Positions 22,535 through 36,412 of a DNA stretch of 64,000 nt are shown here, one piece after another. Source of the stretch: an uncultured Candidatus Saccharibacteria bacterium. Lineage in GTDB: Bacteria > Patescibacteriota > Minisyncoccia > UBA6257. The DNA is taken from assembly GCA_964479005.1 (NCBI GenBank), contig CAYZJA010000002.1, forward strand, positions 64,001-128,000. The letters run 5' to 3'. Within the stretch, counting starts at the first letter, position 1. Each line of letters begins with the position of its first letter. Position numbers and translations under genes: made by a program. The notes beneath the pieces were generated by a model. It had not been told where the DNA came from and did not search any database. It saw nothing but the letters and a program-made list of their open reading frames with translations.

Positions 22535-23701
22535 ATGCCCAAAGTAAAATGTAGAGTTTGCAAAAAGATATTCTATATCAAATCCAATTGGCTTAAAAGA
22601 GGATGGGGAAAATATTGTTCGAGGAAATGTCAGTACAAATCCCAATTGAAAGGAAAATTTGTGGTTTGCGCCTATTGCGGTAGAAGGGTATATCGATCAC
22701 TTGCTGAATTGCGCAGAAAATCTAAGGCAGGAGTTTATTTTTGTAATTTATCCTGTCATTGCGCTTGGAAAAATAAACAAAGGAAAAGTAAGGGAAGATT
22801 TAAATTACAAAATTTATGGGGACCGTGGTGTAATAGTAGCACTAGGACCTGTGGCGTCCTCGGTACGGATGCAAATTCCGTCGGTCCCCCATTTTTCTTT
22901 CTAAAATTCTTAAAGCCCAAGAAGAAAAAAAATAATCTTTTATTTCTTAAGCGGCCACCAAAGAAAATTCTTTATCATTTTTATTGGAAAAAGAATTATA
23001 CCCAAACAGAGATAGCTAAAATTTTTAATGCCACCCACACTAGCGTGAAAAGATGGTTTAATTATTATAAAATCATGGTGAAGTACCGAACTCTATCTTG
23101 TGGCCATAATCCCAATATTTTAAGAAATTTAAAATTAGGTCGTACAGATAAAGCTATTAGAAAATCGGCAGAAGCAAGAAGAATTTATTCAAAAGAAAAA
23201 CTTATTGAAAAAATAAAAGAATTTGTACAAAAAGAAGAAAGAATTCCTACAAAGAACGAATTTATTAATAATTCCTCTTATCCAGATTATGTCACTTACA
23301 GGCATTATTTTGGCACTTGGAATAATGCCATCAAGACAGCGGGCTACAAGCCAAATGAACAATGGTTTGCCTCAGGACATTTATTTGCTAAAGATGGGCA
23401 CAAATGTAATTCAATTTCAGAAATAATCATTGACGATTGGTTTTTTGAAAATGATATTTCTCATACGAGAGAGTGTTTATACCCAGAAGGACGATATCGC
23501 TGTGATTTTATGGTTGGCAATACTTTTATTGAATTTTTTGGTTTATTTAATGCTTCCATTGTTAACCCAAGTTATATTGAAATCGTTAAAAGAAAAAAAG
23601 AAATATGTAAGAAATTTAATATTGTCCTCATTGAACTCTATGAGAAGGATCTTTATAAATTAGATCAATCCTTGGGAGCAAAGATTGGATTAAAAGTATA
23701 A
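22535..23701 (+). CDS. composite ORF: 2x zinc-ribbon N-terminus, HTH, 'YRHYFGTWNNAIKTAG' motif and a DUF559/Vsr-like PD-(D/E)xK endonuclease-like C-terminus; contains a tRNA-His-like sequence in-frame
   Basis: N-terminal 'CRVCKK..YCSRKC' and 'CAYCGR..CNLSCHC'. HTH 'YTQTEIAKIFNATHTSVKRW'. C-terminal 'SEIII..RYRCDFMV..IEFFG..KKFNIVLIEL' resembles DUF559. A 388-codon open frame is unusual in AT-rich DNA, but codons 95-119 coincide with a GC-rich tRNA-like cloverleaf, so the true start or boundaries are uncertain. Confidence 0.4.
   Translation: MPKVKCRVCKKIFYIKSNWLKRGWGKYCSRKCQYKSQLKGKFVVCAYCGRRVYRSLAELRRKSKAGVYFCNLSCHCAWKNKQRKSKGRFKLQNLWGPWCNSSTRTCGVLGTDANSVGPPFFFLKFLKPKKKKNNLLFLKRPPKKILYHFYWKKNYTQTEIAKIFNATHTSVKRWFNYYKIMVKYRTLSCGHNPNILRNLKLGRTDKAIRKSAEARRIYSKEKLIEKIKEFVQKEERIPTKNEFINNSSYPDYVTYRHYFGTWNNAIKTAGYKPNEQWFASGHLFAKDGHKCNSISEIIIDDWFFENDISHTRECLYPEGRYRCDFMVGNTFIEFFGLFNASIVNPSYIEIVKRKKEICKKFNIVLIELYEKDLYKLDQSLGAKIGLKV
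22818..22889 (+). tRNA. tRNA-His(GTG)-like cloverleaf with non-canonical D- and T-loops
   Basis: G-1:C73 and acceptor GGGACCG/CGGTCCC. Anticodon stem AGGAC/GTCCT with loop CTGTGGC. T-stem ACGGA/TCCGT with loop TGCAAAT (no TTC). D-loop AATAGTA (no GG). Confidence 0.5.
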
Positions 23702-23957: not shown

Positions 23958-24266
23958 ATGAAAATAGATTGGAACAAAAAAATCGGAATGCAGGAAGAAA
24001 ATTACGGTTTAACGGTATTTGTTGGAGGGTTAATGCAAATAGTTTTTGGATTTAGTTTTGGTTTAATTCCTTTAGCCATTTTTATTATTACAGTAATCGC
24101 TTTTGTTTTAAGTTTGAAACATGACAGATACGAACCTTTTAGAAGAAGAATGAGTTTTATCGGTTTAGGCATTGTGATTACAATGGTTTTACTTTATTTT
24201 GTTTTTGGCTGGGTAGGAATTATTGGGACATTAGTAATGCCAAAATATGTTTCAATGTTAAGGTAA
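23958..24266 (+). CDS. small membrane protein (3 TM)
   Basis: Hydrophobic segments; a terminator hairpin follows at 24280-24310. Confidence 0.45.
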   Translation: MKIDWNKKIGMQEENYGLTVFVGGLMQIVFGFSFGLIPLAIFIITVIAFVLSLKHDRYEPFRRRMSFIGLGIVITMVLLYFVFGWVGIIGTLVMPKYVSMLR

Positions 24267-24321: not shown

Positions 24322-26448
24322 TTAATCTTTGCGCATAATCTGATGACGTGTATATGCCAACCAAATATCACGAATTTTACTTTCTACTCTAACTAAAGCA
24401 AGCTGTCCTTTAGGATTAAATTTCAGATAATACCAGATTATTAAAGCTGATATTAAGCTGATAATAAGAGATATTAACAAAGTGTTCAAAGGGCCTGTGC
24501 GGATTGTGGCAGCGCCTGCTACTAATCCATAGGTAATTGAAGCGCTATCTGTTATTTTAGTTTCATTGTCTGCTGTTACTTCAGCAGTATTGGTGTAAGT
24601 CAAATAAGTTCCTGAAGAAAGGCTGATAGCTTGGAATACAATTGCTTTACTAGCTCCTCTATAAATTGTTCCTAACGATAATCCGGTGGTAGCAATCGTA
24701 TCTGATTGTACTATGCCATTAATTTTAGTAGTACCAGGCATATAACTAAGTACAGAAGGCATAATATCTTTTAAGCTTACGTTATAAAGATCTTTATTAT
24801 TGCCAGCAGTTATAGTTAAGTGGAATTCAATTACATCGCCTTCAGTAACACGAATAACTTTTGAATATACTCTATCCCCAGAAGAAAGATTTCTTCCTAA
24901 TTTTGTCAAATTAAGGTTAGTGCTTATAGAAGTTACGTAGATCGTAACAGAGCGTGTGATTTGTCCGCCACTACCATAACAAGTTAAGCGATACGTTGTA
25001 TCAGAATTGGGAGAAGTAGATTCATATCCACTAGTTGATTTACTTCCGCTCCATCCATTAGAAGCAGTACAGTAGTTAGCATTAGTGGAGGTCCAGCGAA
25101 GATATGTAGATTCTCCTTGAGTAATCGTATATTTATCTGCCCAGAGATTAAGTGTAGGGGTATTAGTGTATTGTCCACTGACATTTACACTACAAGAAGT
25201 ACTTGCGCTTCTATTTTGTGAATCATGAACAGTTAAATAAGCTGTGTAATTACCATATGAACTAAAACTTTTTTGACTATATGAAGTACTACCATAAGTT
25301 GCCCCAGACCAATAATATGAATAATTTCCTGAACCACCAGAAATATTACTAGAAAAAGTAACTGTTTGGTCCGTTTGGGCTGGATTAGGGGAGGCAGAAC
25401 AAGAAACAGATAGAGATTGATTTGTTTGTTGACAAGCATTAGCACAATCATTATATGAAATATAAGAGCCAGAAGTTGTTTGATAACATTGATGGGTAGA
25501 ATAATTACAAGAATATCTTGTTTGGGCAATGCAGTTATTTTGGCAATTATTTAAAGAAGTGTAAGGACCAGAAGTTGATTGATAACATTGCCATGTAGAA
25601 GTATTGCATGCATATCTAGTTATGGGTGTTTGGCAAGCATTTGCACAATCATTTAAATTAGCATAAGCCCCATTAGTAGCTACATAACATTGATAAGTAT
25701 TTGTATTACAGGAATATCTTGTTGGTGCAATACAGTTATTTTGACATGTGCTTAAAGAGGTATATTGTCCATTAGAATCTACCACACATTGATAATTAGA
25801 ATTGCAAGTGTATCGAGTTACAGGCGGCTGACAATTAGTTGTGCAATCATTTAAATTAGCATAAGCCCCATTAGTAGCTACATAGCATTGATAAGTATTT
25901 GTATTGCATGAATATCTTGTTGGAGATGGAGGTGCCTGAACATAAACCGTAGCGCTATCAGTGACCGTATCGTAATGGCAGTTACTATTACAAGTGATTG
26001 TAAAAGCAGTAGTTTTAGTAAGATTATTAATAGATTTATTTCCATTAAGAGTTACGCTACCACTCCATTGATAATTATACGGAGAAGCAGATGCAGTACA
26101 GTAATTAGTATTAGAAGAAGTCCAGTGCAAAGTAGCAGAACTATTGTATGGAACAGAAGTCGGGGCAGCAGAAATATTTACTGATGGGGAATGGCAAATA
26201 GTAGTGGTTGTGGTAGGAGGACAGGTTGTTGTAGTGGTGCAAGGAGGTTGTGTAGTTGTAGTTGTGGTAGGGGTAGGATAATGGCAATCAGGATAATGGC
26301 AAGGTGGATAAGTAGTTGTAGTTGGACCCGTAACAATTATAGAAGCATCTACAAAAGATGGACTTATTAATGTAAATAGCAAAATAGCCCCTAAGACAAA
26401 GCTTGGGATTATATATTTTCTAAGAGTTCTATAAAAAAGCTTGTTCAT
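24322..26448 (-). CDS. large secreted Thr/Cys-rich repeat surface protein with C-terminal TM anchor (possible sortase substrate)
   Basis: Signal peptide and poly-Thr linkers (TPTTTTTTQPPCTTTTT). About six tandem copies of a ~34-aa repeat 'RYSCNTNTYQCYVATNGAYANLNDC..NCQ'. C-terminal '..TIRTGPLNTLLISLIISLISALIIWYYLKFNPKG'. Confidence 0.6.
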   Translation of the reverse strand: MNKLFYRTLRKYIIPSFVLGAILLFTLISPSFVDASIIVTGPTTTTYPPCHYPDCHYPTPTTTTTTQPPCTTTTTCPPTTTTTICHSPSVNISAAPTSVPYNSSATLHWTSSNTNYCTASASPYNYQWSGSVTLNGNKSINNLTKTTAFTITCNSNCHYDTVTDSATVYVQAPPSPTRYSCNTNTYQCYVATNGAYANLNDCTTNCQPPVTRYTCNSNYQCVVDSNGQYTSLSTCQNNCIAPTRYSCNTNTYQCYVATNGAYANLNDCANACQTPITRYACNTSTWQCYQSTSGPYTSLNNCQNNCIAQTRYSCNYSTHQCYQTTSGSYISYNDCANACQQTNQSLSVSCSASPNPAQTDQTVTFSSNISGGSGNYSYYWSGATYGSTSYSQKSFSSYGNYTAYLTVHDSQNRSASTSCSVNVSGQYTNTPTLNLWADKYTITQGESTYLRWTSTNANYCTASNGWSGSKSTSGYESTSPNSDTTYRLTCYGSGGQITRSVTIYVTSISTNLNLTKLGRNLSSGDRVYSKVIRVTEGDVIEFHLTITAGNNKDLYNVSLKDIMPSVLSYMPGTTKINGIVQSDTIATTGLSLGTIYRGASKAIVFQAISLSSGTYLTYTNTAEVTADNETKITDSASITYGLVAGAATIRTGPLNTLLISLIISLISALIIWYYLKFNPKGQLALVRVESKIRDIWLAYTRHQIMRKD

Positions 26449-26538
26449 ATTTTTATGTTTTTATTTCTATATTAAAGATTTCCATAATATTATCACATAA
26501 AGATATAACTGTCAAGGAGTAATGGATTTAGCATGGAC

Positions 26539-26566
26539 TTGACAAATCACAAAAATGTAGTATAAT
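26539..26566 (+). promoter_or_regulatory. consensus promoter TTGACA-N16-TATAAT
   Basis: 'gacTTGACAaatcacaaaaatgtagTATAATtta'. Confidence 0.5.
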
Positions 26567-26633
26567 TTAATTAACATCTTAGTATTTTAGCATCATTGAT
26601 AATTTAATAAATGAAAAAAAGGAGATAGATAGA

Positions 26634-26762
26634 ATGAGAATCAAAAAGGCATATCTTTTATTAGTAATTATAGGTTTTGTAATATTGCTAATTGGTTTTT
26701 GTGTTTATGACAAGGGGCCTACAAAAATATATAGAGTTTACGAATTTTCTTTAGAAAGATAA
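26634..26762 (+). CDS. small membrane peptide (42 aa), not in the supplied ORF track
   Basis: Strong RBS 'aaaaaggagatagatagaATG'; 'MRIKKAYLLLVIIGFVILLIGFCVYDKGPTKIYRVYEFSLER'; downstream of the consensus promoter. Confidence 0.3.
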   Translation: MRIKKAYLLLVIIGFVILLIGFCVYDKGPTKIYRVYEFSLER

Positions 26763-26802
26763 GAGAGATAAAGAAAGAAATAAAAAAAAGGAGGAAAAAG
26801 AA

Positions 26803-27252
26803 ATGAAAGGAATGAAAAGAAAAGTACTATTTTTTGTTTTAGTAATTTTGCTGGGAGGTTTGTTGACAGGGTGTAATATTGTAATTACTGCACCTGATTG
26901 TTGCCCGTCTCAAATCGAGTGCAGCCTTACTGTAGTGGCAGACTCTTCAGAGGTATATGGAGAAATTGTTGTCAATGGTCAACGAACTGGAAAGTATATA
27001 TTACCTGGTCAATCAATAATAATTTACGGAGTTCTTTGCAATCAGATTGCGACGATTTCTATAGTTGATAATTGTGGGTATTGGTCGCACGAGGAGAATA
27101 TTTACATAATTCCAGGGTCAAACAACTATGTTGTCTTTAGTTACTGGGGTCCATACGGTGTATACAAGGAACAGCAGAAGGAACAGAATGACTATCAGGG
27201 ACAGAACGATTGTCATTGTCATTGTATGAGTATGATGAGTACGAAGGATTAA
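26803..27252 (+). CDS. lipoprotein
   Basis: Signal peptide with lipobox 'LLTGC'; RBS 'aaaggaggaaaaagaaATG'; Cys/His-rich tail. Confidence 0.55.
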   Translation: MKGMKRKVLFFVLVILLGGLLTGCNIVITAPDCCPSQIECSLTVVADSSEVYGEIVVNGQRTGKYILPGQSIIIYGVLCNQIATISIVDNCGYWSHEENIYIIPGSNNYVVFSYWGPYGVYKEQQKEQNDYQGQNDCHCHCMSMMSTKD

Positions 27253-27282
27253 ATAAGGGCTAAGAAGTTAGTAGTACAAAGT

Positions 27283-27323
27283 ATCAAGCTTGTTCAGTAA
27301 GTGGGCAAGCTTGATTTTTTTTA
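27283..27323 (+). terminator. rho-independent terminator
   Basis: Perfect 10-bp stem 'atcaagcttg..caagcttgat' followed by T8. Confidence 0.6.
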
Positions 27324-27456
27324 AATTCAATTTTCGTTTTGACATATAATATTGTTATTTGTCAGGAGGTGATAAATGTGGTATAATATAAATATAATTA
27401 GAAATTTATTAAAATTAATAGAAATTGATAGAAATTTATTGTAATATATATTAAAT

Positions 27457-28443
27457 ATGAAAATGTTATCTAAAATTAAAAATTGGTTTTTGCCGACTAA
27501 AGAGAATAATTTTCAGCCAAGCGTTTTAAGCGACAGGGCGATTTCTGTTTTTATACTTTTATTTTTATTGGTAAAAGTTATTTTTAGTTTTAATTTAATA
27601 TTAGTAAAACAGTCTTCTCTTTTTGCCGATATTAGCGCTCAAAGAATAATATTTTTAACTAATGAAGTTCGTCAGCAATATGATTTGCCTCTTGTGCAAG
27701 AAGATTCATTATTAAACAAGGCTGCCCAGGAAAAGGCTCAGGATATGTTTAAAAATAAATATTTTAGTCATTATAGCCCAGCTGGAACTTCTCCTTGGCA
27801 TTGGATAGATAAATCTGGATATGATTATTATTATGCTGGGGAAAATTTGGCAATGAATTTTTTAGACACCGAAGAAGTAATAGAAGGATGGCTTAATTCC
27901 CCTTCTCATAGGGAAAATCTTTTGAATAAAGACTATAAAGACATGGGAATTGCTGTTGTTTCAGGAGATTTTAATAGTGAAGGAATTAACAGGATTTTGG
28001 TAGTGCAGATGTTTGCTTCTAAAGCCAAACCATCAATTCCTGTAGCTATGGCTCAAGTTCCTCCAGAGGTTATTCCTTCTGAGGAAATTTTGGAAGAAAA
28101 CAAAGTTTTACCTGAAACAACGGAAACAACAATTCAGACGATTATTGGGGTTGCAGAGGAACAGGCGAAAGATATAACCAGTAAACAGGTTTTAGCGCAA
28201 AAAAATGTATTAGCTCAAATTAATAATAATACAAGAAATCAGGTAGAAACAACGAATAAAGTTATTGCTGGGTTTATAATTCTTTTGGGGGTAATGGCTA
28301 TTGCGGGAATTATTTTGCAGCAGAAAACAATTAGTTTTGGTCTTTCCGAACTCGTTTTAAGAAGCGCAATTATTATTATTTTAGGCGTGTCGTTTACCGC
28401 TTTTCATTTAGAGAATTTAATAGGACACTTGATGATATCTTAA
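27457..28443 (+). CDS. CAP/SCP/PR1-like domain exported protein with C-terminal TM segments
   Basis: N-terminal TM, then 'GENLAMNF..EEVIEGWLNSPSHRENLLNKDYKDMGIAVV' (CAP domain HxxN/GxN motifs), then a C-terminal hydrophobic region. Confidence 0.65.
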   Translation: MKMLSKIKNWFLPTKENNFQPSVLSDRAISVFILLFLLVKVIFSFNLILVKQSSLFADISAQRIIFLTNEVRQQYDLPLVQEDSLLNKAAQEKAQDMFKNKYFSHYSPAGTSPWHWIDKSGYDYYYAGENLAMNFLDTEEVIEGWLNSPSHRENLLNKDYKDMGIAVVSGDFNSEGINRILVVQMFASKAKPSIPVAMAQVPPEVIPSEEILEENKVLPETTETTIQTIIGVAEEQAKDITSKQVLAQKNVLAQINNNTRNQVETTNKVIAGFIILLGVMAIAGIILQQKTISFGLSELVLRSAIIIILGVSFTAFHLENLIGHLMIS

Positions 28444-28488
28444 TTGTTATTTGTTGATTGTTACTTGTTATTTGCTATTATGTAGGAT

Positions 28489-29175
28489 ATGTTTAAAGAT
28501 TTAAAGCTTTTTTTTCAGATTTTTTTTATAATTTTTATAATTTCTTTTTTTATTTTTAATGGGGCTGCTTTTTTTGATTTAGTAAATTATAAAATTAATA
28601 AATCAACAGAAGTCATAAAGCAAGAATTAATTCGTACTCCTTCTTTTTTAACTAATTTGCCTACACTTGAGGGAATACAATCTTTAATACCAAGCATTAT
28701 TTCACCTGTAATTAGGCCTATTCCTCCTGAAGCAAAAAATGCCAATATTTTAGAAATACCTCAGTTTAATATTAAAGCGCCAATTTTGGAGGTGGAAACA
28801 GCTGATTCAGAGACAATTTATAAAAAATTAAGACAAGGCGTTGTATTATACCCAGGTTCTGATATTCCTGGTAAGGGTTATTCTATTATCGTAGGGCATA
28901 GCTCACAATATCCTTGGGATCCAGGCAGATATAAATCAGTGTTTTCTTTATTAAACCAATTAGAGCAAGGTGATAAAGTTTATGTATTTTGGGATCAAAG
29001 ACCATTAGTTTTTGAAGTAAAAGAGAAAAAGATATTTTTGCCTTGGCCCAAAGGAACAGAAAGCACTGAAATTATTTTTCCGCCAAGCGATGAGAGAACT
29101 TTAATCTTACAAAGCTGCTGGCCTGTAGGCGTTGCCTCTAAAAGAGTGGCAGTGAAAACGGTTCTTGTAAGATAA
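28489..29175 (+). CDS. sortase-family transpeptidase
   Basis: N-terminal TM, 'IIVGHSS' (His), 'TLILQSCWP' (TLxTC catalytic Cys) and a conserved Arg near the C-terminus. Confidence 0.7.
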   Translation: MFKDLKLFFQIFFIIFIISFFIFNGAAFFDLVNYKINKSTEVIKQELIRTPSFLTNLPTLEGIQSLIPSIISPVIRPIPPEAKNANILEIPQFNIKAPILEVETADSETIYKKLRQGVVLYPGSDIPGKGYSIIVGHSSQYPWDPGRYKSVFSLLNQLEQGDKVYVFWDQRPLVFEVKEKKIFLPWPKGTESTEIIFPPSDERTLILQSCWPVGVASKRVAVKTVLVR

Positions 29176-33970: not shown

Positions 33971-34312
33971 TTAAAAGGTAACTGTTTTTCCGAGAAATGT
34001 ACCTACTACATACATTAATCCTTTAGCTAATAATGCTACACCTATACCTATTAAAGCATGTACAAGACCACTTAATGCTTTTTTTGCTTTTTCGTCATCT
34101 CCTGCAGCAGTGATATAGAGCCACCCTGAATAGACAATGTAAAGTGCTGCTATAAAGAGCACAATATTAAAAAACCACTGTACAGTTTTTTCTAGAAGAG
34201 TCCAAATGTCAACTCCGGTTGCTGATGGAAGATCTTGTACAGTATAGGCGCCAAAAACAGGGATAGCTATCAACATTGTCATGGCTAAAATAGGCAAAAT
34301 AATTTTTTTCAT
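33971..34312 (-). CDS. VirB2/TrbC-like pilin (stand-alone pilin module)
   Basis: 113 aa: signal peptide, 'IVLFIAALYIVYSGWLYITAAGDDEKAKKALSGLVHALIGIGVALLAKG', two hydrophobic helices. Confidence 0.55.
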   Translation of the reverse strand: MKKIILPILAMTMLIAIPVFGAYTVQDLPSATGVDIWTLLEKTVQWFFNIVLFIAALYIVYSGWLYITAAGDDEKAKKALSGLVHALIGIGVALLAKGLMYVVGTFLGKTVTF

Positions 34313-34370
34313 TTTTTTATTTGATTAAAATTAGTTTCATATTCGACCTTTTTTCTTTAATGTAAATTAT

Positions 34371-34470
34371 AACAACCTTTCGCTAAAACTCAAGAACGTT
34401 GAATTAAAACTAGTAAGTTTTAATATTAACAACCTTTCGCTAAAACTCAAGAACGTTTCAATCAAAATGT
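34371..34470 (+). repeat. tandem copies (one full ~57 nt, one partial) of the repeat AACAACCTTTCGCTAAAACTCAAGAACGTTGAATTAAAACTAGTAAGTTTTAATAT
   Basis: Full copy at 34371-34427, second copy starting 34428; a third copy in inverted orientation lies at 46243-46300, and the core CAAGAACGTTGAA occurs at 30447-30459. Confidence 0.7.
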
Positions 34471-34588
34471 ATCATTTCAATTATTTAATATATATTGAAA
34501 TATATATTAAAATTAAAATAAAAGTATTTTAATTATAGCAAATTGCAATCGTGATATCAACATAAATTTTAATTTTCAAAAGGAGAAT

Positions 34589-35092
34589 TTATATTTGAAT
34601 AGACTCAGGAAGTTCATTATCTATTTCTTCTATTTCTTCAGATTCTCCAAAAATAAATTCTTCAATAATAGTGGGCACGCTGCTGGCTATTAGAACAACG
34701 CCAAATCCTATTAAAGCCCAGATAAGAGCCTTTTGCGCAGTTTTTACTTTGTCTTCATTTCCAGCAGAAGTGATATATAAATATCCCGCATAAACTACTA
34801 AGATTGCAGTGATTGGAATAGCCAATCTAATTAAGAAATTAATGATATTTTTTATTAAAGAGGTAATATCACCTGTTTCTCCATATGGGTTGATATATAA
34901 ACCAGTAGACGTTGGACTACTATCATTGGTAGAACCAACTTCTTCTTCGGTGTTTCCGATTTCCACATCAATAGGAATCTCTGCCTGACTTTGTATTGGG
35001 CTTAAAAATAAGCTTAACAATACTAAATTAATAATTAGAATAGTTAATAAGACGATATTTATTTTTGTAGAATTTTTTGACATTGATTTCAT
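34589..35092 (-). CDS. pilin-module protein with N-terminal acidic extension and acidic C-terminal tail
   Basis: N-terminal TM, acidic linker, then 'LAIPITAILVVYAGYLYITSAGNEDKVKTAQKALIWALIGFGVVLIA'. Confidence 0.5.
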   Translation of the reverse strand: MKSMSKNSTKINIVLLTILIINLVLLSLFLSPIQSQAEIPIDVEIGNTEEEVGSTNDSSPTSTGLYINPYGETGDITSLIKNIINFLIRLAIPITAILVVYAGYLYITSAGNEDKVKTAQKALIWALIGFGVVLIASSVPTIIEEFIFGESEEIEEIDNELPESIQI

Positions 35093-35098
35093 AATTGG

Positions 35099-36412
35099 TT
35101 AATTATTATTAAACTCACATTTTCCTCCTGGTCCAAAAGTGTTTGTGAATTCACAGTCTCCAAGAGAAATACATTCGTCTTTATCGCAAACATTAAACAA
35201 ACCTATTCCACAGTTTTCACATTTAGATTCTAGTTCTATTTCTGGTTCTGTCTCTGGTTCTACTGGGCTGACGGGTGTTTCATCGTCTTCTGAGATACAA
35301 TAAGCAAAAGATTTACCTTCTGGGCTTGGGCTATTAATATTGCTTTTTCCAAAATCACAATGCCATCCATTCCCATAAATTTCTCCTGGCGGATTGAGTA
35401 ATTTACTTGGTTCTACGGCAAGACAGAAACCATCTTTTATCTTTTTTTCTATTCCACACTCAGCTGCTCCAGAAGCTTGATTACAGTTCTGATCCCACTC
35501 AGGGCACATAATTGGATATTCAATCCATTCTCCATCTAAATCGGGATATTTTTCTTCTATTTCATCTTTCTTCTCATTAATTTGTTCTTCAGGAGGAGTA
35601 TAATCAGGATCAATAATACAATCAATATATAAAGTGCCTGTTGGAGGGTAGCAAGGATTAATCTCTGAGCCAGTAGGGCTAGTATCTCCTACAAATTTAC
35701 AATATCGTCCTTTTCCATTGCTTATTATTTTATCTTCGGTTGTAATTGAATGTTCTCCTGGTTTGCATTTACTTCTATCTAATTTAAATCCATCTGCGCA
35801 TTCACGGGAGATTGTTATAGGTAAACACATTTGATTTGAATCACTAATAGTGTATTGTACAGCATTTTCCCATTCTTCTTCCTCATCAACTTCATCAACA
35901 TCCTCCTCATCAGGAATTACGTCTTCTTCTCCTTCGCTGGGAGTTGTACCGTCTTCAGGCAGATCAAGTATAGAGCCAGGTTCAGGGCATTCTATATGAA
36001 ACCAAGTTCCTGTATAATCATCACCACCCATTTGTTTGATTGTCCAAAATACAGTATTAACAATTATCCAAGCAGTCAAAATAATAATTAATCCTATAAT
36101 AGCATTTGTTATAATTTGTTGTCCAGCCTTAAGATTTTCTTCCTTACCAAGAGAGAATATCCAGCGAAATCCTCCATAGACAATAAATCCAATTATGATA
36201 AGAAAAGCCATTTCTAAGGCAAATTCTAAAACATTTTGCGTTAAGACCAATAAATCACAAGTAGTACAAGCCTGCTCACCAGGACCTCCACACGGAACCA
36301 ACCCAGCAGCGCTTGTTAAAGAAGGTGTAAAAAGCAGGAGAGTCAGGAGAGAAAAAACAATTAATTTATTATTTAATTTTGTATGTTTTATGTTCCGCGT
36401 TCCACGTTTCAT
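35099..36412 (-). CDS. pilin-module protein fused to a ~300-aa Cys-rich acidic extracellular domain (adhesin/tip-like)
   Basis: Signal peptide and 'AFLIIIGFIVYGGFRWIFSLGKEENLKAGQQIITNAIIGLIIILTAWII'. The C-terminal domain has more than 20 Cys and a poly-acidic stretch 'EDVDEVDEEEEWE'. Confidence 0.5.
   Translation of the reverse strand: MKRGTRNIKHTKLNNKLIVFSLLTLLLFTPSLTSAAGLVPCGGPGEQACTTCDLLVLTQNVLEFALEMAFLIIIGFIVYGGFRWIFSLGKEENLKAGQQIITNAIIGLIIILTAWIIVNTVFWTIKQMGGDDYTGTWFHIECPEPGSILDLPEDGTTPSEGEEDVIPDEEDVDEVDEEEEWENAVQYTISDSNQMCLPITISRECADGFKLDRSKCKPGEHSITTEDKIISNGKGRYCKFVGDTSPTGSEINPCYPPTGTLYIDCIIDPDYTPPEEQINEKKDEIEEKYPDLDGEWIEYPIMCPEWDQNCNQASGAAECGIEKKIKDGFCLAVEPSKLLNPPGEIYGNGWHCDFGKSNINSPSPEGKSFAYCISEDDETPVSPVEPETEPEIELESKCENCGIGLFNVCDKDECISLGDCEFTNTFGPGGKCEFNNN

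What the first reader, a model, noticed from the sequence alone, without database searches (positions are those of the whole stretch)
24322..29175. Cell-surface island: Thr/Cys-rich repeat protein, lipoprotein, CAP-domain protein and sortase
A 708-aa exported protein has poly-Thr linkers and about six tandem copies of a 34-aa Cys-containing repeat (RYSCNTNTYQCYVATNGAYANLNDC..NCQ). It ends in a motif-TM-basic tail reminiscent of sortase sorting signals, but with TIRTG rather than LPXTG. It is followed by a lipobox lipoprotein, a CAP/SCP (PR-1-like) domain protein and a sortase (VGHSS...TLILQSCWP). The locus could be an adhesin or host-interaction module, and the nucleotide-level tandem repeats (~25400-25950) may mediate repeat-number variation.
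Basis: partly seen in the sequence, partly recalled or inferred. Interest (0 to 1): 0.5.

Follow-up and report, generated by a model that had tools for sequence, protein, structure and literature searches.

The report
Paceibacterial sortase with one dedicated substrate
A tiny uncultured bacterium (Paceibacteria, CPR) carries a conserved gene cluster. Its unclassified sortase enzyme most likely fixes one variable-length, cysteine-repeat surface fibre to the cell wall through an unusual, proline-free "T-[V/I]-x-T-G" tag. This is plausible and apparently undescribed, but it has not been shown experimentally.

Summary
The genes are real, with corrections. The 708-aa protein is on the minus strand, divergent from the lipoprotein, CAP and sortase genes. 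It has five Cys repeats, not six. A 42-aa membrane ORF was missed. The cluster is core genome, not an island.

The sortase passes Pfam Sortase and has invariant His137/Cys210/Arg219. It reaches no NCBIfam class cutoff. Its nearest sequences and folds are class C pilus sortases, but it lacks their lid and C-terminal anchor.

The surface protein ends in a CLIPPER/DUF11 domain followed by V-x-G-A-[AS]-T-[VI]-x-T-G. T, T and G are invariant in 47 distinct homologues and x is free. A TM helix and a conserved 33-residue basic tail follow. A search of 1.84 billion representative proteins found this tail only in this family. In 22 of 23 informative metagenome loci the lipoprotein/CAP/sortase genes lie divergently upstream.

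Cys-repeat number ranges from 0 to 10. Two strains with identical sortases differ by one in-frame 207-nt indel (2 versus 4 repeats). The repeat models confidently as a β-hairpin plus helix resembling the Kunitz core.

Best reading: a dedicated sortase–substrate pair that anchors a variable fibrillar adhesin. Cleavage, acceptor and adhesion are inferred.

The parts
24322..26448 (-). Surface protein precursor, 708 aa: signal peptide, Thr/Cys-His linkers, Ig-like domain, five 4-Cys repeats, PKD-like domain, Ig-like domain, CLIPPER/DUF11 domain and C-terminal sorting signal.
   Evidence: ORF. Pfam DUF11/CLIPPER 28.9 bits (cutoff 24.6) at residues 534-632; PKD 21 bits, below its cutoff. TIGR01451 31.4 bits, cutoff 24. 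Identical protein on three other contigs.
26341..26448 (-). Signal peptide (residues 1-36, ...SFVDA|S).
   Evidence: Read from the sequence. The N-terminal type is conserved in orthologues.
26194..26340 (-). Poly-Thr linkers with Cys-His motifs (PPCHYPDCHYP...), residues 37-85.
   Evidence: Short 15-nt tandem repeats found by TRF.
25933..26193 (-). Ig-like domain 1 (residues 86-172), a paralogue of residues 430-507.
   Evidence: Local alignment score 126 between the two domains. Nucleotide repeat family D5.
25423..25926 (-). Five tandem 4-Cys repeats (residues 175-342). Each is predicted as a β-hairpin plus helix mini-domain.
25198..25404 (-). PKD-like domain (residues 349-417).
   Evidence: Pfam PKD E=3.4e-4, 21 bits, below the gathering score of 23.5.
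24928..25161 (-). Ig-like domain 2 (residues 430-507).
   Evidence: Conserved in all family members.
24529..24915 (-). CLIPPER/DUF11 (CnaA-like) domain, residues 512-640. It carries a candidate isopeptide triad: K516, D561, N620.
   Evidence: K is present in 45/47, D in 47/47 and N in 47/47 distinct homologues. Nature of the domain from PMC12617251.
24490..24522 (-). Sorting motif VAGAATIRTGP (residues 643-653). The proposed cleavage is between T651 and G652.
   Evidence: V643, A646, T648, T651 and G652 are invariant; G645 is 46/47; position 650 is R/K/Q/E/A/V/N.
24424..24486 (-). Transmembrane helix of the sorting signal (residues 655-675).
   Evidence: Read from the sequence. Conserved hydrophobic stretch ending in WYY.
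24322..24423 (-). Conserved basic cytoplasmic tail KFNPKG...E.K.R...R (residues 676-708) plus the stop codon.
   Evidence: G681 47/47, E689 44/47, R693 45/47, R701 44/47. 8 K/R against 3 D/E.
26487..26566 (.). Back-to-back promoter-like sites in the divergent intergenic region. Minus strand: 26515-26487. Plus strand: 26539-26566, a 12/12 match to TTGACA-16-TATAAT.
   Evidence: Consensus scan only.
26634..26762 (+). 42-aa single-TM ORF (MRIKKAYLLLVIIGFVILLIGFC...YRVYEFSLER) with an AAGGAG ribosome-binding site.
   Evidence: 44-aa orthologues in L006, L007 and L010. Called as a gene in L002, L003, L006 and L007.
26803..27252 (+). 149-aa lipoprotein: lipobox LLTG-C24, an APDCC motif, a β-rich body and a C-terminal NDCHCHC motif.
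   Evidence: tblastn hits in related loci. No Pfam family.
27283..27387 (+). Terminator-like hairpin (27283-27315; 14 pairs plus a T-run), then an 11/12 promoter-like site (27359-27387) in front of the CAP gene.
   Evidence: Consensus scan only.
27457..28443 (+). 328-aa membrane protein: N-terminal TM, extracytoplasmic CAP/SCP domain (residues 67-185) and two C-terminal TM helices.
   Evidence: Pfam CAP 73.1 bits. YkwD 105 bits and DalA 57.6 bits, both below their cutoffs. It lies directly upstream of the sortase in 15 of 19 informative species genomes.
28489..29175 (+). 228-aa sortase with an N-terminal TM anchor. Catalytic residues: His137 (28897-28899), Cys210 (29116-29118), Arg219 (29143-29145).
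   Evidence: Pfam Sortase 64.7 bits. All NCBIfam class models are far below their cutoffs. Invariant GHS, ILQSCWPVG and KR motifs. PDB alignments. Predicted fold.

Best explanation
This is a dedicated sortase-substrate system of Paceibacteria (CPR).

Proposed mechanism:
1. The 708-aa precursor is exported by Sec.
2. It is held in the membrane by its C-terminal TM helix and basic tail.
3. The membrane-anchored sortase (His137/Cys210/Arg219) cleaves the A-[AS]-T-[VI]-x-T|G motif after Thr651.
4. The sortase then transfers the protein to an amine of the peptidoglycan precursor.
5. A fibrillar protein therefore ends up covalently fixed to the wall. The isopeptide-type CLIPPER domain sits next to the wall. 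A stalk of disulfide-stapled 4-Cys beads and Ig/PKD-like domains projects the variable N-terminal part outwards.
6. Stalk length changes by gain and loss of repeat units.
7. The CAP-domain membrane protein, and less tightly the lipoprotein and the 42-aa peptide, are co-conserved accessory components of unknown role.

Shown here: the domains, the catalytic residues, conservation of the motif, the fact that only this family carries the signal, the synteny, and copy-number variation.

Inferred: cleavage, the cleavage site, the acceptor, adhesion, and any role of the CAP protein or the lipoprotein.
For: Sortase:
- Pfam Sortase 64.7 bits.
- His137, Cys210 and Arg219 are invariant in 39 homologues and in 21 loci. 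They align with the catalytic GH, TC and R of solved sortases.
- The predicted fold matches sortases at Foldseek E=7e-12.

Signal:
- In 47 distinct homologues V643, A646, T648, T651 and G652 are invariant. Position 650 is free (R, K, Q, E, A, V, N) and position 653 is P or A, followed by a TM helix and a basic tail.
- phmmer of the last 75 residues against 1.84 billion representative proteins gave 18 hits. All 15 that were read are CLIPPER-bearing proteins of this family, or C-terminal fragments of them.

Synteny:
- All 44 metagenome loci found through the signal belong to the same family.
- 13 of them reach a sortase, 9 end inside the CAP or lipoprotein gene, and only 1 informative locus lacks the cluster.
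- Among species genomes the substrate lies divergently upstream in 10 of 16 informative cases.

Other candidates:
- There is no second sortase and no second signal in the window.
- No other plausible substrate occurs in 648 kb of related DNA.

Cell wall:
- Alanine racemase and a MurA-type (EPSP_synthase family) gene lie next to the cluster in L004 and L006.

Architecture and variation:
- The CLIPPER domain is a stalk domain of fibrillar adhesins.
- Repeat number ranges from 0 to 10. Strains with an identical sortase differ by one in-frame 207-nt indel.
Against: - No experiment exists, and adjacency is the only link between enzyme and substrate.
- The motif has Val/Ile where nearly all known sortase signals have Pro (or Ala in class E). 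No LPXTG-anchor HMM matches it.
- The 33-residue tail is conserved far beyond a simple charge stop. That could mean the C-terminus stays attached and has a function of its own.
- In 6 of 16 informative species the sortase has no adjacent substrate gene. In 4 of 19 it has no CAP gene.
- Only 64 kb of a roughly 550-kb genome could be scanned for other substrates.
- The nearest sortases are pilus polymerases, not housekeeping anchoring enzymes.
Confidence: 0.62

Rival explanations
1. The sortase is a polymerase. Like class C enzymes, it would join copies of the 708-aa protein into a covalent fibre (pilus). The join would be to a Lys side chain or to a new N-terminus, instead of (or before) wall anchoring.
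For: - The best PDB sequence hits and most of the top 36 Foldseek hits are pilus-specific class C sortases.
- The CLIPPER domain gives a weak match to the RrgB isopeptide pilin domain TIGR04226 (E=2e-4).
- The mature N-terminus ASIIVTGP resembles the C-terminal AATIRTGP.
Against: - The class C HMM scores 35 bits against a cutoff of 160.
- There is no DP[WFY] lid motif and no C-terminal TM helix. The protein ends 9 residues after Arg219.
- No invariant Lys was seen outside the near-invariant candidate isopeptide K516, although K530, K575 and K601 are 43-45/47.
- The N-terminal motif is IIVTD in L029, L035 and L050. It is part of a 16-aa tandem unit, and it is absent from the second N-terminal type.
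- Foldseek scores for classes A, D and E are only about 100-fold weaker.
Confidence: 0.12
2. The C-terminus is simply a membrane anchor and is not cleaved. The conserved VAGAxT[VI]xTG would be the last strand or linker of the CLIPPER module, and the tail would be a cytoplasmic interaction domain. The neighbouring sortase would act on other proteins elsewhere in the genome, and the adjacency would be inherited gene order.
For: - The motif has no Pro, and no anchor HMM matches it.
- The tail is long and conserved.
- The whole region keeps its gene order, including the unrelated tsaD, leuS and prsW genes.
- Some sortase loci lack the substrate gene.
Against: - The pattern of invariant T..TG with a free middle position, directly before a TM helix and a basic tail, is the hallmark of sortase signals.
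- No other candidate substrate was found in 648 kb of related DNA.
- Divergent promoter-to-promoter placement is kept in 22 of 23 informative loci, although the intervening and flanking genes vary (HNH, alr, murA and LAGLIDADG insertions).
Confidence: 0.2
3. The Cys repeats are functional Kunitz-type protease inhibitors, so the protein would be a surface-displayed inhibitor array rather than an adhesin stalk.
Against: - The repeat has 4 Cys, not 6. It corresponds only to the hairpin-plus-helix core and lacks the N-terminal segment that carries the protease-binding loop.
- Pfam Kunitz_BPTI gives no hit.
- Copy number ranges from 0 to 10 among orthologues, which is the behaviour of a spacer.
Confidence: 0.04

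Closest known systems
Class C (pilus-specific) sortases, e.g. Clostridium perfringens SrtC (6IXZ/7D6T) and Actinomyces oris SrtC-1 (2XWG)
   Same: - Sortase β-barrel fold and His-Cys-Arg triad.
- N-terminal membrane anchor.
- Best sequence matches (E=7e-4) and best structural matches (E=7e-12).
- Encoded next to the substrate gene.
   Different: - 35 bits against a class cutoff of 160.
- About 23% identity.
- No lid motif and no C-terminal TM helix.
- The substrate has no LPXTG and no recognisable pilin motif.
LPXTG cell-wall sorting signal of Gram-positive surface proteins (Gram_pos_anchor / TIGR01167)
   Same: - Tripartite layout: a short motif ending in T-G, a hydrophobic helix and a positively charged tail at the extreme C-terminus of an exported multidomain protein.
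- The middle position of the motif is free.
   Different: - The motif is A-[AS]-T-[VI]-x-T-G, with no Leu-Pro.
- The tail is 33 conserved residues, not a short run of 5-10 basic residues.
- No HMM match.
Single-substrate sortase systems (from general knowledge: S. aureus SrtB-IsdC with NPQTN; class GN 'marine' sortase TIGR03784 with its adjacent target protein)
   Same: One sortase, one cognate substrate family with a private variant of the motif, and the two genes adjacent.
   Different: - No sequence relationship beyond the superfamily: the class GN model scores 15.5 bits against a cutoff of 158.
- Different motif and different phylum.
- An additional co-conserved CAP-domain membrane protein.
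CLIPPER (DUF11) fibrillar adhesins (Protein Sci 2025, PMC12617251)
   Same: - A CnaA-like CLIPPER domain with Lys/Asp/Asn at the expected sequence motifs.
- The domain occurs in a long exported protein with stalk repeats and a C-terminal sorting domain.
   Different: - There is a single CLIPPER domain next to the anchor, rather than a tandem CLIPPER stalk.
- The stalk is built from an unclassified 4-Cys mini-domain.
Bacterial CAP/SCP proteins (YkwD family; DalA of Rhodobacter sphaeroides, PMC10470522)
   Same: - CAP domain (Pfam 73 bits), located outside the cytoplasm.
- DalA binds peptidoglycan and associates with cell-wall synthesis enzymes, which makes a wall-related role conceivable.
   Different: - Below the YkwD cutoff (105 against 171 bits) and the DalA cutoff (57.6 against 200 bits).
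- Anchored by three TM helices rather than by a lipid.
- A link between a CAP protein and a sortase was not found in the literature searched.
Kunitz/BPTI domain
   Same: The predicted β-hairpin plus C-terminal helix superposes at 1.6 Å over 33 residues. The motif Y/F-x-S-x3-C-x3-C is shared.
   Different: Four Cys instead of six, no protease-binding loop, no sequence-profile match, and weak scores.

Membership tests
Sortase superfamily (Pfam PF04203, peptidase C60) | Profile match above the curated cutoff | tested here: met
   64.7 bits against a cutoff of 26.6, covering profile positions 1-124 of 125.
Sortase superfamily (Pfam PF04203, peptidase C60) | Catalytic His, Cys (TLxTC-type motif) and Arg | tested here: met
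   H137, C210 (ILQSC) and R219 are invariant in 39 homologues and 21 loci. They align with the GH, TC and R of 2XWG and 6IXZ.
Sortase superfamily (Pfam PF04203, peptidase C60) | Eight-stranded β-barrel fold | tested here: met
   AlphaFold2 model with mean pLDDT 73.7, and above 80 in the core. 135 PDB matches at E<=0.001; the 50 listed are all sortases. This is a prediction only.
Sortase superfamily (Pfam PF04203, peptidase C60) | Transpeptidase activity on a C-terminal sorting signal | not testable with these tools
   Needs biochemistry or proteomics.
Sortase classes A-F and GN (NCBIfam class models) | Score above the class cutoff | tested here: not met
   Bits against cutoff: class D 36.6/165, class C 35/160, SrtD 33.7/140, class F 30.7/166, class E 19.5/160, class GN 15.5/158. 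The generic TIGR01076 model scores 36/39.35.
Class C pilus sortase | Lid with a DP[WFY]-type motif over the active site | tested here: not met
   No DP[WFY] anywhere in the protein. The segment before the barrel (residues 50-85) is variable and modelled with low confidence.
Class C pilus sortase | Second, C-terminal membrane anchor | tested here: not met
   The protein ends at ...KRVAVKTVLVR, 9 residues after Arg219.
Class C pilus sortase | Substrate with a pilin-motif Lys used as nucleophile | tested here: inconclusive
   No invariant Lys outside the candidate isopeptide K516 in the last 215 residues. K530, K575 and K601 are 43-45/47. Upstream domains were not analysed column by column.
LPXTG-type cell-wall sorting signal | Motif, hydrophobic helix and positively charged tail at the C-terminus of an exported protein | tested here: met
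   Residues 643-653, 655-675 and 676-708, with 8 K/R against 3 D/E in the tail.
LPXTG-type cell-wall sorting signal | LPXTG (or a known variant: LPXTA, NPQTN, LAXTG) consensus and an anchor HMM match | tested here: not met
   The motif is A-[AS]-T-[VI]-x-T-G. No anchor model hit even at E<=10.
LPXTG-type cell-wall sorting signal | Cleavage after Thr and amide linkage to the peptidoglycan cross-bridge | not testable with these tools
   Needs mass spectrometry of the wall-bound protein.
CLIPPER / DUF11 (PF01345, TIGR01451) | Profile match above the curated cutoff | tested here: met
   Pfam 28.9 bits against 24.6. TIGR01451 31.4 bits against 24.
CLIPPER / DUF11 (PF01345, TIGR01451) | Lys-Asn isopeptide bond with a catalytic Asp | tested here: inconclusive
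   K516 (LTK), D561 (KDxxP) and N620 (YTNTA) are present and conserved in 45, 47 and 47 of 47 homologues. Their geometry was not modelled, and phmmer found no alignment to the solved CLIPPER structure 9IFR.
CAP / SCP superfamily (PF00188) | Profile match above the curated cutoff | tested here: met
   73.1 bits against 21.1, covering profile positions 3-116 of 117.
YkwD subfamily / DalA equivalog | Score above the subfamily cutoff | tested here: not met
   YkwD 105.3 bits against 171. DalA 57.6 bits against 200.
Bacterial lipoprotein | Signal peptide ending in a lipobox [LVI][ASTVI][GAS]C | tested here: met
   LLTG-C24. LTGC is conserved in L004, L006, L008, L009 and L016; L027 has LNGC.
Bacterial lipoprotein | Lgt/LspA machinery present in the genome | not tested
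   Only 64 kb of the genome was available.
Kunitz/BPTI domain (PF00014) | Six-Cys pattern, protease-binding loop and profile match | tested here: not met

The most novel reading that the evidence does not exclude
This is a previously undescribed, CPR-specific sortase class, outside classes A-F and GN. It would work as a multi-component machine with a CAP-domain membrane protein, and possibly with the small lipoprotein and the 42-aa peptide. It would process a single dedicated substrate through a proline-free T-[VI]-x-T-G signal. The conserved 33-residue cytoplasmic tail of that signal would be part of recognition, or would have a signalling role after cleavage. Given its class C-like fold, the enzyme might polymerise the protein into a fibre rather than only anchor it.
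Probability: 0.3. Interest if true: 0.65.

Novelty: new variant of a known kind. Interest (0 to 1): 0.45.

Why it matters
CPR/Patescibacteria make up a large share of bacterial diversity. They are thought to live attached to other cells, yet how they build and decorate their envelope is largely unknown. Sortases are known to be enriched in CPR genomes (PMC6744442), but I found no description of their substrates or sorting motifs in the literature available here.

This locus offers a concrete, testable enzyme-substrate pair:
- a defined peptide (VAGAATIRTGP) for in-vitro assays;
- a candidate host-contact fibre whose length varies between strains;
- a new, proline-free recognition motif that could widen the toolbox of sortase-mediated ligation;
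- an unexpected link between a sortase and a CAP-domain membrane protein.

If the link is wrong, the locus is just a conserved neighbourhood of envelope genes.

Tried and rejected
1. Word-indexed protein searches. The search with the C-terminal 203 aa and the one with the Cys-repeat block returned only 3 and 6 significant hits. They missed even the query's own protein, so they are uninformative on distribution. The exhaustive representative search and DNA-pattern scans were used instead.
2. Metagenome scan with the 15-sequence signal alignment. It was repeated with 5 closer sequences, which biases the 44 loci towards close relatives.
3. A second sortase site at the N-terminus (ASIIVTGP against AATIRTGP), implying head-to-tail ligation. 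This is largely rejected. Gly is Asp in L029, L035 and L050. The motif is part of a 16-aa tandem unit. It is absent from the second N-terminal type.
4. Horizontally acquired island. Rejected on GC content and on conserved housekeeping flanks.
5. Other sorting systems. No NCBIfam or Pfam C-terminal sorting-domain model matches. PrsW, three genes downstream, is kept in order with tsaD and leuS and is most simply read as conserved gene order.
6. The CAP protein as a sortase substrate through its N-terminal 'FLPTKEN'. Rejected because the motif precedes the first TM helix and would be cytoplasmic, and because it lacks the Gly.
7. The Pam pili of CPR (bioRxiv 10.64898/2026.03.03.709456). They are assembled by donor-strand exchange and are not sortase-related, so they are not relevant.
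8. phmmer of the CLIPPER domain against the PDB gave only chance hits.

Full report
**What is at the coordinates**

The window is AT-rich throughout (GC 0.30-0.36), and the region of the finding does not differ from the rest.

- 24322-26448 on the minus strand, 708 aa;
- 26803-27252 on the plus strand, 149 aa;
- 27457-28443 on the plus strand, 328 aa;
- 28489-29175 on the plus strand, 228 aa.

The large gene is therefore divergent from the other three. It is not followed by them.

Pfam gives these matches:
- DUF11/CLIPPER: 28.9 bits, above its cutoff;
- a sub-threshold PKD match in the 708-aa protein;
- CAP: 73 bits;
- Sortase: 64.7 bits;
- nothing for the 149-aa protein.

The 354-nt intergenic region holds a 42-aa single-TM ORF (26634-26762) with an AAGGAG ribosome-binding site. 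The same region holds back-to-back promoter-like sites. A terminator-like hairpin and a second promoter-like site lie between the lipoprotein and CAP genes. All of these are consensus matches only.

**Organism and context**

The sortase has 188 significant homologues. Those that carry a name are called sortase of Candidatus Paceibacterota, Pacebacteria or Minisyncoccia. An identical protein occurs on a 551-kb contig.

In related contigs the order is kept: [surface protein, minus strand] [42-aa ORF, lipoprotein, CAP protein, sortase, tsaD, leuS, prsW, plus strand]. This is a core-genome cluster among housekeeping genes, not an island.

The space upstream of the surface gene is variable. It holds an HNH-repeat protein here, and alr, a murA-type gene and a LAGLIDADG gene elsewhere.

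**Anatomy of the surface protein**

| Residues | Feature |
|---|---|
| 1-36 | Signal peptide |
| 37-85 | Poly-Thr linkers with Cys-His motifs |
| 86-172 | Ig-like domain 1 |
| 175-342 | Five 31-33-aa 4-Cys repeats |
| 349-417 | PKD-like domain |
| 430-507 | Ig-like domain 2, paralogous to the first |
| 512-640 | CLIPPER domain |
| 643-653 | VAGAATIRTGP |
| 655-675 | TM helix |
| 676-708 | 33-residue tail |

CLIPPER is the new name of DUF11. It is a CnaA-like, usually isopeptide-bonded stalk domain of fibrillar adhesins (PMC12617251). The expected Lys/Asp/Asn positions are K516, D561 and N620. They are conserved in 45, 47 and 47 of 47 distinct homologues. I could not measure their geometry.

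**The C-terminal signal**

No Pfam or NCBIfam model matches the last 74 residues, even at E<=10.

phmmer of the last 75 residues against 1.84 billion representative proteins found 18 proteins. All 15 that I read are members of this CLIPPER-bearing family or C-terminal fragments of it, with varied N-terminal architectures.

A DNA-pattern scan of metagenomes with the signal found 44 loci, again all of this family.

Across 47 distinct sequences:
- V643, A646, T648, T651 and G652 are invariant, and G645 is 46/47;
- position 647 is A or S, and position 649 is I or V;
- position 650 is free (R, K, Q, E, A, V, N);
- position 653 is P or A;
- the tail keeps G681, E689, R693 and R701.

An invariant T..TG with a free middle residue, immediately before a TM helix and a basic tail, is how sortase signals behave. 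The absence of Pro and the long conserved tail are not.

**The sortase**

His137, Cys210 and Arg219 are invariant in 39 homologues and across 21 loci down to 46% identity. They align with the catalytic residues of solved sortases.

Every NCBIfam class model is far below its cutoff. The best are class D at 36.6/165 and class C at 35/160.

The closest solved sequences are class C pilus sortases (E=7e-4). An AlphaFold2 model (pLDDT 73.7) matches the same enzymes best (E=7e-12). Classes D, E and A follow at about 1e-9.

Two defining class C features are missing:
- there is no DP[WFY] lid motif;
- the protein ends 9 residues after Arg219, so it has no C-terminal TM helix.

It is a sortase of no described class.

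**Linkage**

Starting from the substrate, the 44 metagenome loci break down as follows:
- 13 reach a sortase;
- 9 end inside the CAP or lipoprotein gene;
- 1 informative locus (L069) lacks the cluster;
- 21 are too short to tell.

Starting from the sortase, in 20 species-representative genomes:
- the CAP gene lies directly upstream in 15 of 19 informative cases;
- the substrate gene lies divergently upstream in 10 of 16 informative cases.

The window has one sortase and one signal-bearing protein. A generic scan for 'xxxT[GAN] + TM + basic tail' over 648 kb of related DNA found 50 members of this family. It also found 11 other ORFs: polytopic membrane proteins such as PrsW, the CAP protein's own C-terminus and permease-like proteins, plus two short overlapping ORFs.

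I could not scan a whole genome, so other substrates elsewhere are not excluded.

**Repeats and their variation**

TRF calls nothing at 25400-25950. The 99-102-nt copies are 60-71% identical, except copies 1 and 3, which are 85% identical over 126 nt.

Copy number nevertheless varies strongly:
- 0 to 10 among the metagenome loci;
- 0 to 7 among the representative proteins.

L006 and L007 encode identical sortases. Their surface genes are 96% identical apart from a single in-frame 207-nt indel, giving 2 versus 4 repeats. Orthologues have arrays that TRF does call.

The repeat also occurs in other CPR proteins of different architecture; P0145 in particular ends without this signal.

**Accessory genes**

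The CAP protein has an N-terminal TM helix, an external CAP domain and two C-terminal TM helices. It is below the YkwD and DalA cutoffs. DalA is a related CAP-type lipoprotein that binds peptidoglycan and associates with wall-synthesis enzymes (PMC10470522). That is a lead for a wall-related role and nothing more.

The lipoprotein keeps its lipobox, an APDCC motif and a C-terminal NDCHC(H) motif in orthologues.

**Mechanism and rivals**

Most likely (0.62) this is a dedicated sortase that cleaves after Thr651 and attaches the protein to peptidoglycan, displaying a stalk of variable length.

The rivals are:
- polymerisation into a fibre, suggested by the class C resemblance (0.12);
- an uncleaved membrane anchor with coincidental gene order (0.20);
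- a Kunitz-type inhibitor array (0.04).

The resemblance of the N-terminal ASIIVTGP to the C-terminal motif is probably structural. Orthologues have IIVTD, and the motif belongs to a 16-aa repeat unit.

**Novelty**

Sortases are known to be common in CPR (PMC6744442), and these genes are already annotated as sortases.

I found nothing on three points:
- a CPR sorting motif;
- a dedicated CLIPPER substrate;
- a CAP-sortase pairing.

This holds for the literature available here and for the NCBIfam and Pfam models. It is a new variant of a known kind, resting entirely on comparative sequence evidence.

Noticed in passing
window 26634-26762 (+): A 42-aa single-TM ORF with a good ribosome-binding site and a perfect TTGACA-16-TATAAT site upstream (26539-26566). 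44-aa orthologues ending in ..VYEFSLEK occur in L006, L007 and L010. It is probably a fifth member of the cluster.
   Followed up: partly
window 26323-26346 (-), residues 35-42 of the 708-aa protein; also L035 1732-1860: The mature N-terminus ASIIVTGP resembles the C-terminal sorting motif AATIRTGP. In orthologues the same IIVT[GD] belongs to a 16-aa tandem unit (..EGWGIIVT[GD]; 48 nt x 2.7 copies, 98% identical in L035), and Gly is sometimes Asp. It is therefore probably not a second sortase site.
   Followed up: yes
window 26194-26340 (-) and 27208-27252 (+): Cys-His-rich motifs occur in two proteins of the cluster. The surface protein has PPCHYPDCHYP (HPLCHD.SC repeats in orthologues). The lipoprotein ends in NDCHCHC. 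These may be metal-binding or thiol-exchange sites. Not examined.
   Followed up: no
window 27283-27387 (+): A 14-bp-stem terminator-like hairpin with a T-run lies just after the lipoprotein gene. An 11/12 extended promoter-like site follows, just before the CAP gene. This suggests that the lipoprotein unit and the CAP-sortase unit are transcribed separately.
   Followed up: no
window 22535-23701 (+); L004 5452-5907 and 10737-11123: Free-standing homing-endonuclease-like genes populate the variable spots around the cluster. There is an HNH_repeat protein here, and LAGLIDADG_3 and GIY-YIG genes in a related genome (the GIY-YIG gene lies between sortase and tsaD).
   Followed up: no
window 27457-27540 (+), CAP protein residues 9-21: The cytoplasmic N-terminus of the CAP protein carries a conserved motif, NWF[LW]PTKENxFxP, in orthologues down to about 45% identity. 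Its function is unknown.
   Followed up: no
window 25423-25926 (-): The 4-Cys repeat is predicted with high confidence (pLDDT 92) as a β-hairpin plus helix. Its only structural neighbours are Kunitz/BPTI domains. No Pfam or NCBIfam family describes it, and it also occurs in other CPR proteins (P0145, P0146).
   Followed up: yes
window 33971-36412 (-): Three genes with T4SS_pilin (PF18895) domains lie next to a solute-binding protein gene, about 5 kb downstream of the sortase. They are conserved in the same place in related genomes (annotation of L001, L004, L006). This is a second, unrelated surface-filament system.
   Followed up: no
surface-protein orthologues in L058, L065, L066, L068, L070 and P0125, P0128, P0130: A second, unrelated N-terminal module (ALTIAD.NGIPSACPDK...TVFINSITVNGF.D.D, about 190 aa) replaces the poly-Thr/Cys-His N-terminus in part of the family. 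The CLIPPER domain and the signal stay constant. The distal end is swapped between lineages.
   Followed up: partly
window 23958-24266 (+): A 102-aa polytopic membrane ORF lies convergent with the 3' end of the surface gene. It is conserved (88-97%) only in the closest genomes (L008, L009) and has no family assignment.
   Followed up: no
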